From the NCBI RefSeq assembly GCF_009914755.1, contig NC_060926.1: a stretch of 64,000 bases of DNA; one strand, written 5' to 3'. The notes under the pieces are model-generated. The model ran no database searches. It was not told the DNA's origin and saw nothing but the letters and a program-made list of their open reading frames with translations. The DNA is from the human T2T-CHM13v2.0 reference genome, Homo sapiens. Every line of letters begins with the position of its first letter. Within the stretch, counting starts at the first letter, position 1. Shown here in pieces: positions 16,903-26,211 of the stretch. The position numbers and the translations under genes are program-made.

Positions 16903-17808
16903 CTTTGTGGTTTTATCTACTTTTGGTCTTTGATGATGGTGATGTACAGATGGGTTTTCGGTGTAGATGTCCTTTCTGGTTGTTAGTTTTCCTTCTAACA
17001 GACAGGACCCTCAGCTGCAGGTCTGTTGGAATACCCTGCCGTGTGAGGTGTCAGTGTGCCCCTGCTGGGGGGTGCCTCCCAGTTAGGCTGCTCGGGGGTC
17101 AGGGGTCAGGGACCCACTTGAGGAGGCAGTCTGCCCGTTCTCAGATCTCCAGCTGCGTGCTGGGAGAACCACTGCTCTCTTCAAAGCTGTCAGACAGGGA
17201 CACTTAAGTCTGCAGAGGTTACTGCTGTCTTTTTGTTTGTCTGTGCCCTGCCCCCAGAGGTGGAGCCTACAGAGGCAGGCAGGCCTCCTTGAGCTGTGGT
17301 GGGCTGCACCCAGTTGGAGCTTCCCAGCTGCTTTGTTTACCTAAGCAAGCCTGGGCAATGGCGGGCGCCCCTCCCCCAGCCTCGTTGCCGCCTTGCAGTT
17401 TGATCTCAGACTGCTGTGCTAGCAATCAGCGAGATTCCGTGGGCGTAGGACCCTCTGAGCCCGGTGTGGGATATAGTCTCGTGGTGCGCCGTTTCTTAAG
17501 CCGGTCTGAAAAGCGCAATATTCGGGTGGGAGTGACCCGATTTTCCAGGTGCGTCCGTCACCCCTTTCTTTGACTCGGAAAGGGAACTCCCTGACCCCTT
17601 GCGCTTCCCAGGTGAGGCAATGCCTCGCCCTGCTTCGGCTCGCGCACGGTGAGCACACACACTGGCCTGCGCCCACTGTCTGGCACTCCCTAGTGAGATG
17701 AACCCGGTACCTCAGATGGAAATGCAGAAATCACCCGTCTTCTGCGTCGCTCACGCTGGGAGCTGTAGACCGGAGCTGTTCCTATTCAGCCATCTTGGCT
17801 CCTCCCCC
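16903..17808. promoter_or_regulatory. L1 5'UTR: sense promoter (YY1 site CAAGATGGC) and antisense promoter pointing toward exon 9
   Basis: Complete CpG-rich 5'UTR; promoter activity is inferred from established L1HS biology. Confidence 0.8.
17358..17573 (+). CDS. LINE-1 ORF0 (71 aa), intact, antisense to the L1 and sense to DIS3L2
   Basis: gcaATGG start; MAGAPPPASLPPCSLISDCC...TRFSRCVRHPFL*; internal donors after 17463 and 17548. Confidence 0.85.
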   Translation: MAGAPPPASLPPCSLISDCCASNQRDSVGVGPSEPGVGYSLVVRRFLSRSEKRNIRVGVTRFSRCVRHPFL

Positions 17809-18287
17809 CTCCTTAATTTTCTAAAGGTCCAATAACTGGTATGACAGGACTGTTTTAACAACTAATATCAGGTCCATCACTTCACTTGCTTCCTTTTGTC
17901 CTCCCTCCTCCTCACCCTCCCACCACTCCATTCATGGATCTAGTGCTCAGCGCCAGTCTTTGTGGAGGAATTTCTCCATCTCTTGGTACACCTCAGTTCA
18001 TCACTTTGCAGTTTTTCAGAAAGGGCTTATGAGAACTATATTCCCTGAGTTCTTGTATTTAGAAATCTTTATCTTTGAAATCCAGTAACTCCACTAGAAT
18101 ATATTTCATTGGTGATTTTCTGTAATTTTCTTTTCTGAGACTTACCTTTCTGTAAACCTAAATTTTCTTTATTTCAGAAAAGTTTTCTTAATGATCTTGG
18201 AAAATGTTTTCTTTTCTTCATCTCTAGCTCCTTCCTTCAGTTATGCCGAAGGAAGGATCTAGAGATGAGGAATAGAAAATGTTTTCT

Positions 18288-18582
18288 GGCCAGGCGTGGT
18301 GGCTCACGCCTGTAATCCCAGCACTTTGGGAGGCCGAGGCGGGCAGATCACGAGGTCAGGAGATTGAGACTATCCTGGCTAACATGGTGAAACCCCGTCT
18401 CTACTAAAAATACAAAAAATTAGCCAGGTGTTGTGGCGGGTGCCTGTAGTCCCAGCTACTCGGGAGGCCGAGGCAGGAGAATGGTGTGAACCCGGGAGGC
18501 GGAGCTTGCAGTGAGCTGAGATCGCGCCCCTGCACTCCAGCCTGGGCGACAGAGTGAGACTCCATCTAAAAAAAAAAAAAAA
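18288..18582 (+). mobile_element. AluY
   Basis: gatcacgaggtcaggagat...atcctggctaac, ggagcttgcagtgag; TSD aaaa(t)gttttct. Confidence 0.9.
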
Positions 18583-20885
18583 GTTTTCTATTCCAAAGAA
18601 TCTTAGAAAATGTTTTCTATTCCTCATCTCTAGCTCTGTATTTCAAGGATGCCTGGAACTCCTTGGTCTGCCTTTCACATCTGTCTGTTTTCTTTGTTAT
18701 CTTTTTAAACTCTACTTGCCCAGTTTCATTTTCCTCACTTTTCTCAAGATTTTACTCTATGATCCTTATGGCTTTCAAATAGTGTCAGTTCTTCATTAGG
18801 TATTTCCAGTATGACTTTCACTTTCTGTGATAGTTTTATCGTTCTTTTCTACTTATTTCCTGAGGTCTAAAAACCTAGTTTTTGTTTCCTTTCATGACTT
18901 ACTTATTCCTTATGCACTTGCATCTTTGCTTCAAGCTCTTGTTTTATAAAGCTTATATTTTTGGGAGTTCTTGAGAGTATCTTTGGTCATTTCTGTGGTT
19001 ATATGCTTATAGAGATTGTTTTGTCCTTCTGCCATTTCTTTTTCTTGCTCCTTTTTTTCCTTTTAAATGTGGGTTTTTTTTTTAATAGAATGTTTGGATG
19101 GTTCCTTCTACTCTCCCTCCCTGGAATCTTTAAATAGTGAGTTCTTCCTGGACTTTAGTATTATATTTAAAAAACTGGACATTATAAAATGCTTTTTGTC
19201 TAAGTTTTTAGCCCCTTTTCTATTTTAGGCATAAGACAATCATTTAGGTCCGTATTGTATCCTGGAGGATAGCATTCCAACTTCACTCACTCTTAACTTC
19301 AAGGTGAGAATAGTATGGTCACTGTGTTCTAGGTCAGCCTCACAAACACTGAGACTCCCACCACATAGAAGAATTTGTTTCTTTTCGTATTAGTGTAGTT
19401 CTCTAATAAACTCTATGTGGTATATCTCATTTTTATACTTCTCCCAGAAGCTATGTATGCTATCTAATTAATGGATGGTTAGTTATTTTATGTAACTTTT
19501 AATACTATTAGGTAGAATCAGAAGAAACTGTGTTTTATATGTTAATAAATGGTCATATTGGCAATTTTCTGTGCCTCAAAATAATATATTATTAACTTCT
19601 TTATATTGTTGTTGCCATTCTTGAATTATTACTTCTGAGTAACCTCTCAGTTGGCTTGAGTTGCACATAAGTTTTTTTTGGGAAGGAAAGTACATAGCAT
19701 ATTTTCTGCCTTTTAATATCAGTCAGGGTTCTTGTAGTCTCAGATTCCAATTCAGAGGAATCATAATTATGTCCCCAGAGGTACTAAAACCTTTCAACTG
19801 TAGAGATGAGCATTATGTAGGCAAAACTAAATATTTTATGTGTGGGTCTTAAGTGTGATATTGAAAGGCCTGACTCCTCCCTTGCATTCTTTCTTCCCAA
19901 ACCATGTACACTGCCTGTAGGATGCTAAATCAGAGCACCAATGCATCCTGGAGGATGGCACTCCCCCCTCACAACTGATGCCTCCTGGTTAGTCCAACAG
20001 CTTAGTAAGTCAGATCATTACATCATGCCAGTCAGTGAAATGTATGGGCTTTGCTTCTTCCAAAAGGTGAAGTCCTTAATTACAAACAATGTTGAGTGCG
20101 ATAATAGCTTAAAAGATATTTCGTAAATCTGAGGATTGTGGTGTTTACATAAGCAATATAGGTAGAAGAAATGCAGATAGCAAACCTAGAGTAAGTGTCT
20201 CTTTTAGTGGAGGAATTACTGCCTTTCCCATCCTAAAAGAGCTCACTGGATGCGATCTGATGTGAAGTAGTTGGGGGTCCTCCTGGCATGGCTGTGTATC
20301 AGGTGCTCAGAGTTGGTTGCTGCTGCTGGCAAGCTAGCATCCTGCAAGAATGGTATTCAGGTCAGCATTAGTGAGAAGTGAATGTTGTGGAGTGCATTTC
20401 CTGCTGCCTTGTGCTTTGTTCCTATGTCCCTTGAGCAAGCACTGCAGCGATGGGGACATACACGGGCGCAGGCCATCCTGCCTCCACAGTGGGAGCCTTT
20501 CACTGTGCACTCTCATGGAGCACAAATAGTTATACCCTGTCTGGACTCATTTCAGTGGGCCCATTTCATCCACATGTCTTTTCCCTAGATGCCCTTGTCA
20601 CCAGTACTCCAATCTTTCTTCTTTCAGGTCCCTATCCATCTGGTTAAACTTGTAGTCACTGCCTATCAGCCTATCAGGTTGTCCTTCCTCAGCTAAAGTG
20701 GACCACGGACATAGGGCTTGAAGTTCTGCCCACTGGGAGAAAGTTTCTGCTATATTGTCTTTTCAGAGACCATCCCTTACAATGGATTTAATGCTATCGT
20801 GTCCATTTATGACTCATGACAATGGAGGGTCAGTTGGAACTAGGCATTCAAGGTACTCAAACCTTTCTGCATCCTCCTTTATATC

Positions 20886-24650: not shown

Positions 24651-26000
24651 AAAATATTTTCTAATTCTTTTTTTATTTCTTCTTTAACCTATGGGTTGTT
24701 GGATTTCCACATATTTGGGGATTTTCCAGATTGCTTTCTGTTAATTTTTCTCTCATATTTTTGCTGTCTGGCTTTTTGATGTGTTTTATGGGAGAGACCA
24801 CCCATTTGTGGAGAAAGTACTCTTCTGAGTCCACATCATATGGGAGGAGCCCACAGGTCAGTCTGCAGGCTGCCGAGATCATAGGCTGGTGGGCGGGTGC
24901 ACAAGTAGACTGGGCTGGTCTCTCTTGACTAGTGTGAGAAATGGGGCCAGCCCTGCTGCCATCACTGCTGCATTCCAGTGGCAAGGCTGAAGATTGGAAT
25001 TTGTTAAAAGTCTGCTTATGAGGCAACCACCTCCCCTATTCCTCTTTACCACTGTGCACATAAGAACTCCAGCAGCCAAGCATCTACCCTTATTTAGGAA
25101 ACAGAACCTTTTTCATAGAAATCGAATAGCCTGAGAGAATGTCCTGATGCCATAGCTAAATTTCTTGCAGAAAGTGCTGAGGGCGGACTCTTGGAGCACC
25201 CTGGTAGATAAGTAGACTTGTACAACAGAGGAGATGGCCATTTTTGGTCTCCGCAATACCCTCTACAAAGGCAGCCAAGGCCCATAACACATTTCCTGTT
25301 GGCTGCCTGTATTCAACGCACAAATTTAGACTTGTGATCTGTATGTGGCATGACAATGCTTATGAGAATAGAGAGCTGTCAATTTGGTAAGGAGTGAGAT
25401 CTGCCTTCTGAAAGGTGGAACCCTGTTCATAATGTTAGCATTGTCCTGTTAAATGCAATTTTATTTTTAATGGGCCAGTGCCCTAAAATGTGCATGGGTG
25501 ACTGGTTTATGGATAATTTTAATTTTCTTCTCAGTGGATTTTGTGTTTTCTAACTTCTTTGCAATGAACGTATATTACTTTTGTGTTTAGATAAAATATT
25601 TTAAAATTTTAAAGATTAAAAACTGGTAGAGTTGTGAAATAGGAACATCAGAATTAATCTAGTAAGCATGACTTAACGTACAGGCACTCTGAAACTAATG
25701 ATTTAATAGCACACTGGATTGATCATAATATCAATTTTGACTTCTCTGTGAAGAACAATTGGAGGGGTCCTAAGGAAAGCCTTCTGGCTCTGTTTCTCAA
25801 GTCAGAATGTCAAATAAAAAAAGGTGAAATTACACTGTAGTTACCGATTTAACAGGAGAAGAGCATTACTGTGTCTTCTGCTTTCCCATTGCCAGTGATT
25901 TACGGATGATCATGTTTCTACTGGTGGAAGGGCAGGAGATTTTAAACTTTCCCACTACTTTACTTTTAGAGAGGAGACAGGTACCTATGTTCCATTTGTT

Positions 26001-26037
26001 TGCTAACCCAGTTATTCCGTTTCTGTTCTATCCATAG
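26001..26037 (+). promoter_or_regulatory. Branch point (tgCTAAC, A at 26006), polypyrimidine tract and 3' splice site of exon 9
   Basis: Consensus yUnAy motif 31 nt upstream of the AG, with a pyrimidine-rich stretch before the acceptor. Confidence 0.75.
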
Positions 26038-26211
26038 GCAGCTGGCTAAGAGTCTTGGGCAGGCTGGTGAAATTGAGCCTGAAACAGAAGGAATACTAAC
26101 AGAGTATGGCGTGGATTTCTCTGATTTCTCTTCAGAAGTTCTAGAATGTCTTCCTCAAGGCCTGCCATGGACAATTCCACCAGAGGAGTTCAGCAAGAGA
26201 AGGGATTTAAG
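26038..26211 (+). CDS. DIS3L2: DIS3L2 internal coding exon (exon 9; 174 nt, phase 2/2), CSD2-RNB linker and start of the RNB domain
   Basis: Reads (G)[57 protein letters not shown](R); RRDLR is the typical RNase II/R RNB start. Acceptor ttctgttctatccatAG ends at 26037, donor GTAAGC starts at 26212. The length matches my recollection of c.951-1124. Confidence 0.95.

What the first reader, a model, noticed from the sequence alone, without database searches (positions are those of the whole stretch)
17358..26211. Intact L1 ORF0 is in frame with DIS3L2 exon 9: predicted ORF0-DIS3L2 fusion nuclease
Seen: ORF0 (ATG 17358) runs in the gene's direction about 8.5 kb upstream of exon 9. Its second donor (TTTTCCAG|GTGCGT, exon end 17548) falls 191 nt after the ATG, which is phase 2, and exon 9 has a phase-2 start. 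The splice gives ...F-S-R(AG|G)-Q-L-A-K-S... with no frameshift. The first donor (after 17463, phase 1, out of frame) reads CCG|GTGTGG where I recall CAG|GTGTGG, so it looks weakened. Known: L1 antisense-promoter transcripts splice ORF0 to host exons; the DIS3L2 catalytic aspartates lie just downstream of exon 9. Inference: a 64-aa ORF0 leader joined to the RNB and S1 domains without most of the cold-shock domains, possibly with altered oligo-U selectivity, in cells where L1 is demethylated. There is no expression evidence in the sequence.
Basis: partly seen in the sequence, partly recalled or inferred. Interest (0 to 1): 0.75.

Follow-up and report, generated by a model that had tools for sequence, protein, structure and literature searches.

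The report
Chance L1-ORF0 frame match in DIS3L2
A young jumping gene inside the DIS3L2 gene could in principle splice onto exon 9 in frame, but no such RNA was found and the match is likely chance; the firmer result is that it shares a near-identical 2.5-kb stretch with a neighbouring copy, likely by gene conversion, which would help explain the recurrent exon 9 deletion in Perlman syndrome and Wilms tumour.

Summary
The geometry is real. ORF0 (17358-17573) is intact, its second donor (after 17548) is phase 2, and exon 9 is a phase 2-2 exon (DIS3L2 residues 317-375). The first donor carries a private change (29 of 29 paralogues differ). The splice would give a 632-aa protein lacking CSD1 and most of CSD2; a published construct without residues 1-365 is active.

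The match is generic, though: all 29 paralogues have the same phase-2 donor. No fusion junction was found. DIS3L2 is absent from a 988-gene EST catalogue, and brain/glioma RNA-seq shows three unspliced read pairs here. The promoter is 81-99% methylated in 11 of 12 cell lines; 2102Ep (18%) is the line to test. Denli's list of 57 fusions could not be read.

Better supported: this L1HS-Ta carries a 430-bp chr5 transduction and belongs to the known pair flanking exon 9. It shares a 2,456-bp tract (1 difference, against 49 in 2,347 bp outside) with the downstream L1PA2-type copy, with donor-type and shared private variants, indicating gene conversion. That likely fuels the recurrent deletion.

The parts
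11311..11324 (.). Left target-site duplication of the L1-A insertion (14 bp)
   Evidence: Exact 14-bp match to 17809-17822, followed by a T run
11325..11352 (-). Second poly(A) tail, ending the 3' transduction (limits approximate)
   Evidence: Sequence
11347..11776 (-). 430-bp 3' transduction from chromosome 5
   Evidence: Matches chr5 71.32 Mb and 70.90 Mb with 3 mismatches and 22.09 Mb with 7; no full-length L1 at the junction in any of the three
11777..17808 (-). L1-A: full-length L1HS, Ta-type 3' UTR (ACA), ORF1 and ORF2 both interrupted
   Evidence: listed as L1HS, full-length, mutORF1_mutORF2 in PMC10879037 supplements (matched by gene, strand, length and broken ORFs)
12282..14737 (-). 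Tract nearly identical to L1-B, likely converted from B; holds the ORF2 stop
   Evidence: 1 difference in 2,456 bp against 49 in 2,347 bp outside; 7 of 7 subfamily-separating sites L1PA2-type; 5 variants shared by A and B and absent from 11-15 covering paralogues
16398..16477 (-). Second short patch shared with L1-B; holds the ORF1 frameshift
   Evidence: 6 sites where A equals B against 27-29 of 29 paralogues, one interrupting site where A follows the paralogues
17358..17573 (+). ORF0, 71 aa, on the L1 antisense strand, same direction as DIS3L2
   Evidence: full length in 28 of 29 paralogues; no Pfam match
17461..17469 (+). ORF0 donor 1 (exon end 17463), phase 1, private change at position -2
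   Evidence: CCG here, CAG in 29 of 29 paralogues; U1 duplex -6.1 against -7.1 kcal/mol
17546..17554 (+). ORF0 donor 2 (exon end 17548), phase 2, in frame with exon 9
   Evidence: identical 9-mer in 27 of 29 paralogues, phase 2 in 29 of 29
17609..17617 (+). Donor-like site after the ORF0 stop (exon end 17611); also looks like an acceptor
   Evidence: Best U1 duplex of the sites scored, -11.6 kcal/mol; present in 29 of 29 paralogues; use not shown
17620..17654 (+). Downstream ATG (17620) and a donor private to this copy (exon end 17648), 29 nt apart, phase 2: second possible in-frame route to exon 9
   Evidence: A at 17652 in none of 29 paralogues; U1 duplex -8.3 against -4.0; frame open; use not shown
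17809..17822 (.). Right target-site duplication
26038..26211 (+). DIS3L2 exon 9, 174 nt, phase 2-2, residues 317-375: last third of CSD2 and the linker into the RNB domain
   Evidence: Pfam OB_Dis3 positions 55-77 of 77; hub annotation
39383..44188 (-). L1-B: 5'-truncated L1PA2-type copy (GAG) inserted in an Alu, same orientation as A, no 5' UTR or ORF0
   Evidence: 98.96% over 4,806 columns to A; 25-nt target-site duplication
39893..42348 (-). Matching tract in L1-B, the likely donor of the conversion; offset to A 27,611 bp

Best explanation
This is a human-specific L1HS-Ta insertion in DIS3L2 intron 8 whose standard ORF0 donor matches the phase of exon 9, likely by chance, and it likely yields no more than trace fusion RNA and no functional fusion protein. 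Shown: insertion anatomy (target-site duplication, two poly(A) tails, chr5 transduction), intact ORF0, phase match, methylation in 11 of 12 lines, unspliced reads only. Inferred mechanism: the antisense promoter is silenced in most cells. Where it fires, many starts lie downstream of the ORF0 ATG, most RNA runs through the donors unspliced, and the spliced part is shared among several donors and acceptors. The element's documented effect is structural: it pairs with L1-B, 27.6 kb away. A non-crossover outcome likely copied 2.5 kb of B into A, breaking A's ORFs and leaving near-perfect identity; a crossover deletes exon 9 together with ORF0.
For: Phase-2 SD2 in 29 of 29 paralogues, so the frame needs no selection. 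No DIS3L2 row in the 988-gene catalogue, with UVRAG as positive control. Pinson 2022 Table S2 Id_469: 3 read pairs in 11 samples, 497 bp, the two sides overlapping, not validated. 44 of 1,509 chimeras spliced. Starts mapped at +300 to +500 and +150 to +250, while the ATG is at +451. Methylation 0.81-0.99 in 11 of 12 lines. 7 of 10 splice routes tried are out of frame or stop early. 10 acceptor-like sites pass the same filter as exon 9's acceptor and 8 poly(A) hexamers lie in between. Conversion evidence. Recurrent non-founder exon 9 deletions attributed to the flanking L1s (PMC13158626).
Against: The element is demethylated (0.18) in 2102Ep, and I saw no junction data for that line. The private SD1 change would shift use away from the out-of-frame donor. 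Pinson reports that antisense-promoter output follows host transcription more than methylation, and DIS3L2 is a co-oriented host. The negative catalogues are shallow (ESTs; 11 brain samples). Denli's table of 57 fusions and several large recent catalogues could not be read.
Confidence: 0.75

Rival explanations
1. In embryonal-carcinoma, germ-line or placental cells the demethylated antisense promoter starts upstream of 17358, SD2 splices to exon 9, and a 632-aa ORF0-DIS3L2 protein is made. It would be an active RNB-S1 nuclease behind about 110 poorly folded residues, weaker on structured RNA.
For: Frame open; strong ATG context and no other ATG between 17000 and 17619; SD1 weakened; methylation 0.18 in 2102Ep; construct lacking residues 1-365 is active, with lower processivity at stems and fivefold better productive binding; 57 ORF0-exon fusions reported (second-hand). 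The stop would be the normal one, so decay is not expected (inference).
Against: No junction seen; fusions are 57 of about 3,200 loci; the orphan third of CSD2 may destabilise the protein; the arrangement is human-specific with no sign of selection.
Confidence: 0.12
2. A truncated DIS3L2 arises without ORF0: transcripts starting downstream of 17358 use the ATG at 17620 and the private donor after 17648, giving a 10-residue leader on exon 9. The same donor also puts SD1 plus a 37-nt mini-exon in frame.
For: Donor private to this copy; U1 duplex -8.3 against -7.8 for SD2; both routes open; many antisense starts lie at +150 to +450.
Against: No RNA evidence; ATG context weaker (+4 C); the site after 17611 scores higher and would remove the ATG from the exon; U1 duplex energy is a crude proxy.
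Confidence: 0.06
3. The donors act on the host transcript: part of the L1 5' UTR is occasionally included as a cryptic exon between exons 8 and 9, mostly with a stop, lowering DIS3L2 output.
For: 8 acceptor-like sites upstream in the 5' UTR; 28 of 32 acceptor-donor pairs carry a stop; 2 pairs ending at SD2 (291 and 150 nt) are open and keep the frame. Exonisation of antisense L1s is described.
Against: No such exon among the RefSeq transcripts in the hub table; no junction data seen.
Confidence: 0.07

Closest known systems
ORF0-proximal exon fusions (Denli et al. 2015; paper not held, seen only through PMC4908685, PMC5554003, PMC7746726)
   Same: Intact ORF0 with two internal donors, co-oriented host, in-frame downstream exon.
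   Different: Those 57 were observed; this one is predicted only. SD1 is weakened and a private donor follows the stop. Whether DIS3L2 is on Denli's list could not be checked.
L1 antisense-promoter chimeric transcripts (Criscione 2016, PMC4908685; Pinson 2022, PMC9396940)
   Same: Intronic young L1, antisense promoter facing along the gene; this element is listed as Id_469.
   Different: Id_469 is unspliced, 3 read pairs, unvalidated, and could be host pre-mRNA; no spliced EST.
L1-L1 non-allelic homologous recombination deleting DIS3L2 exon 9 (Higashimoto 2013, not held; described in PMC13158626; general case PMC4344489)
   Same: Same two co-oriented L1s flanking exon 9; in-frame 174-nt exon.
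   Different: The internal 2,456-bp near-identical tract, its B-to-A direction and A's chr5 transduction were not seen in the passages I read. A search for DIS3L2 + exon 9 + gene conversion listed 2 papers on other loci (listing only).
Engineered DIS3L2 lacking the cold-shock domains (residues 1-365 deleted; Meze 2023, PMC10023572)
   Same: RNB and S1 kept, CSD block lost.
   Different: The predicted fusion keeps residues 318-365 and adds a 64-residue ORF0 leader; never assayed.

Membership tests
L1HS-Ta insertion | About 6-kb L1 with poly(A) tail and target-site duplication | tested here: met
   11777-17808; 14-bp duplication at 11311 and 17809 enclosing a transduction
L1HS-Ta insertion | ACA in the 3' UTR (diagnostic recalled) | tested here: met
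   A reads ACA, B reads GAG; labelled L1HS in two supplements
ORF0 locus | Intact 71-codon antisense ORF with ATG in good context | tested here: met
ORF0-exon fusion | Donor inside ORF0 in phase with a downstream host exon | tested here: met
   SD2 phase 2, exon 9 phase 2
ORF0-exon fusion | Spliced junction observed in RNA | tested here: inconclusive
   Absent from the catalogues read, which are shallow; raw RNA-seq not available
ORF0-exon fusion | Start site upstream of the ORF0 ATG at this locus | not testable with these tools
   No CAGE or long-read data; family-level starts fall on both sides
ORF0-exon fusion | Fusion protein detected | not testable with these tools
   No proteomics access
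Interlocus gene conversion tract | Sharply bounded excess identity between paralogues | tested here: met
   1 in 2,456 against 49 in 2,347 (the tract was picked from the data, so the Poisson value of 3e-21 overstates it); best other copy about 10 mismatches
Interlocus gene conversion tract | Shared private variants and donor-type diagnostic sites inside, acceptor-type outside | tested here: met
   5 shared private sites; 7 of 7 sites L1PA2-type inside, 4 of 4 L1HS-type in A outside (9 L1HS-type and 6 GAG-type paralogues, 1 of 16 untyped)
Interlocus gene conversion tract | Unconverted ancestral or alternative haplotype seen | not testable with these tools
   One haplotype only

The most novel reading that the evidence does not exclude
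In L1-permissive embryonal or germ cells this human-specific L1HS drives a CSD-less, catalytically active DIS3L2 isoform, helped by private splice changes that open in-frame routes; the common exon 9 deletion removes both the exon and this promoter, and the 2.5-kb conversion tract sets how often that deletion recurs.
Probability: 0.1. Interest if true: 0.7.

Novelty: new member of a known kind. Interest (0 to 1): 0.3.

Why it matters
If made, the fusion would be a human-specific, retrotransposon-driven form of a tumour-suppressor nuclease with changed handling of structured RNA, and one RT-PCR in 2102Ep would test it. As it stands it is one of many phase-compatible ORF0 loci. The conversion tract matters more surely. 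Exon 9 deletion was the germline event in 28 of 34 children with heterozygous DIS3L2 variants and Wilms tumour, without a founder. A 2.5-kb near-perfect tract predicts where crossovers cluster, that breakpoints there cannot be resolved, and that risk may differ between haplotypes with and without the tract.

Tried and rejected
Papers not held: Denli 2015, Higashimoto 2013, Matlik 2006, Speek 2001, and a guessed id for a pan-cancer TE-antigen paper. Searches with no paper: DIS3L2 + 'L1 antisense promoter', DIS3L2 + L1PA2. Searches whose listings showed nothing on this fusion. PMC13503937 is a mouse study, irrelevant (4 of 16 files not searched). PMC12229592 supplements hold no DIS3L2, but I did not check that they list chimeras, so this carries little weight. 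Lanciano Table S7 covers only MCF-7, where this element is 97% methylated, so its silence is uninformative; Table S8 'not expressed' refers to sense L1 transcription. I first read the missing duplication beside the L1 tail as a target-site deletion; rejected when the duplication appeared beyond a transduction. Assembly artefact for the tract: unlikely, as the hg38 copy is also listed with both ORFs broken, but not tested directly. A-to-B conversion rejected by diagnostic sites. No fold or complex prediction was run: the fusion is not a contiguous window sequence, and the CSD-less enzyme has been assayed. No MaxEntScan; U1 duplex energy was used as a crude stand-in.
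Full report
OBSERVATION. The sequence is as described. ORF0 runs 17358-17573 on the + strand, 71 aa. Donor 1 (exon end 17463) is phase 1 and donor 2 (17548) is phase 2. Exon 9 is 174 nt and encodes human DIS3L2 residues 318-374 in full codons, identical to PDB 8e29. 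Exon 8 ends in phase 2 and exon 10 continues the frame into the aspartate motif (exon numbers other than 9 inferred from order). D391 is the catalytic residue mutated in PMC10023572. SD2 to exon 9 is open; SD1 to exon 9 stops at codon 56. The predicted protein is 64 + 568 = 632 aa. I checked junction phases for exons 8-13 only; the rest is taken as the normal frame.

CHANCE. Among the 29 closest paralogous 5' UTRs (top non-self loci of 40 scored, 4,035 candidates), 28 have a 71-aa ORF0 and all 29 have SD2 at 191 nt. The phase is a family constant, so the match needs only a phase-2 intron: 2 of 6 DIS3L2 introns phased here, about a fifth to a quarter genome-wide (recalled). With about 3,200 ORF0 loci and 57 observed fusions (second-hand), compatibility is common and use is rare. 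What is particular to this copy: six positions differ from most paralogues in 612 bp. One creates a better donor after 17648, beyond the ORF0 stop. By U1 duplex energy, a crude proxy, SD1 falls from -7.1 to -6.1, SD2 is -7.8, the site after 17611 is -11.6 and the private site rises from -4.0 to -8.3 kcal/mol. Of 10 splice routes tried, 3 are in frame: ORF0-SD2; ORF0-SD1 plus a 37-nt mini-exon; and ATG 17620 with the private donor.

EXPRESSION EVIDENCE. Criscione 2016 (PMC4908685; abstract, passages, supplement search): no DIS3L2 in 11 files, while the control gene UVRAG is found. Pinson 2022 (PMC9396940; passages, Table S2 rows): Id_469 is a 6,034-bp minus-strand L1HS in DIS3L2 with 3 read pairs over 11 samples, a 497-bp span with overlapping sides, so unspliced, and not validated. 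Anchored on the L1 end, its L1 side spans roughly 17490-17800 and so runs through SD2. In that study 44 of 1,509 chimeras were spliced, and starts fall at +300 to +500 or +150 to +250; the ORF0 ATG is at +451, so many transcripts would lack it. Lanciano 2024 (PMC10879037; passages, Tables S2 and S8 rows): the element is present in 12 of 12 lines, methylated 0.81-0.99 in 11 and 0.18 in 2102Ep, with both ORFs listed as mutated and no sense expression. I match these rows to the window's element by gene, strand, length and broken ORFs, not by lift-over. Against my reading: 2102Ep is permissive and untested, Pinson argues that host transcription rather than methylation drives these transcripts, and Denli's list was not available. 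Large recent catalogues were seen only as search listings; their supplements may bear on this.

WOULD THE PROTEIN WORK? Exon 8 holds Pfam CSD2 positions 1-51 and exon 9 positions 55-77 of 77, so the splice cuts CSD2 and leaves an orphan piece plus linker. Meze 2023 (PMC10023572, passages) deleted residues 1-365: the enzyme stays active, with lower first-step processivity, lower processivity at stems and fivefold better productive binding. An active enzyme is therefore plausible if the protein is made and stable (inference). I saw no data on oligo-U selectivity of that construct.

WHAT THE ELEMENT IS. The true insertion spans 11311-17822: a 14-bp duplication at both ends, a second poly(A) tail and a 430-bp transduction. 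The transduced DNA matches only three chr5 sites (4 of 4 candidates with self; 3, 3 and 7 mismatches), none with a full-length L1 at the junction in this genome. The source element is thus absent from this haplotype. The 3' UTR is ACA, Ta-type (diagnostic recalled), so the arrangement is human-specific and recent.

THE PAIR AROUND EXON 9. A second L1 (39383-44188, same orientation, 5'-truncated, GAG-type, inside an Alu) is 98.96% identical to A. These are the repeats to which recurrent, non-founder exon 9 deletions are attributed (PMC13158626, passages; Higashimoto 2013 not held). Identity is uneven: 23 differences in 507 bp, then 1 in 2,456 bp (12282-14737), then 26 in 1,840 bp. Genome-wide, B is 1 mismatch from A over this stretch and the next best of 40 scored copies about 10 (from bit scores). 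Against 16 paralogues (9 ACA/ACG, 6 GAG, 1 untyped; 6 picked by likeness to the tract, 5 to B's 3' end, 5 to A's), all 7 subfamily-separating sites in the tract are L1PA2-type in both A and B, while A is L1HS-type at 4 of 4 sites outside; 5 variants are shared by A and B alone. One of them is the ORF2 stop, and a second 80-bp patch carries the ORF1 frameshift. The simplest reading is conversion of A by B, which inactivated A. PMC4344489 (passages) notes perfect-identity segments of 2.4 kb at 15 LINE-LINE breakpoints and that a high-identity sub-fragment may drive such events. A crossover in the tract would delete 27,611 bp, exon 9 and ORF0 together (inference).

VERDICT. Observation confirmed; interpretation partly supported. 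As an ORF0 fusion it is an unobserved candidate of a known kind. I put detectable junction RNA in permissive cells at about 0.3 and a functional protein at about 0.1 (judgement). The conversion tract is well supported by sequence, was not found in the papers I could search, and may be described in Higashimoto 2013, which I could not read. Overall interest 0.3.

Noticed in passing
window 12282-14737 and 39893-42348: 2,456-bp near-identical tract between the two L1s flanking exon 9, with L1PA2-type and shared private variants: likely B-to-A gene conversion and a candidate driver of the recurrent exon 9 deletion.
   Followed up: yes
window 11311-11776; L058, L059, L060: L1-A carries a 430-bp 3' transduction from a chr5 duplicated sequence (70.90, 71.32, 22.09 Mb); no source L1 at those sites in this genome and no sibling insertions found.
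   Followed up: partly
window 16398-16477: Second short patch shared with L1-B that carries the ORF1 frameshift; with the ORF2 stop in the long tract, both breaks in A appear to come from B.
   Followed up: partly
window 17620-17654: A private base creates a donor 29 nt after an ATG, giving a second in-frame route to exon 9 without ORF0.
   Followed up: partly
window 17788: Private change (29 of 29 paralogues differ) at about L1 position 21, the edge of the reported YY1 site (positions 13-21); effect unknown.
   Followed up: no
window 39317-44211: L1-B sits inside an Alu with a long 25-nt target-site duplication.
   Followed up: no
outside the window, DIS3L2 (hg19 chr2:232896211-232902701, from PMC9396940 Table S2): An L1PA7 in an earlier intron has more antisense chimeric reads (29 read pairs in 10 of 11 samples), also unspliced.
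   Followed up: no
L059:902-1240: The chr5 22.09 Mb copy holds a short inverted L1 fragment about 320 bp from the transduction junction, absent from the other two copies.
   Followed up: no
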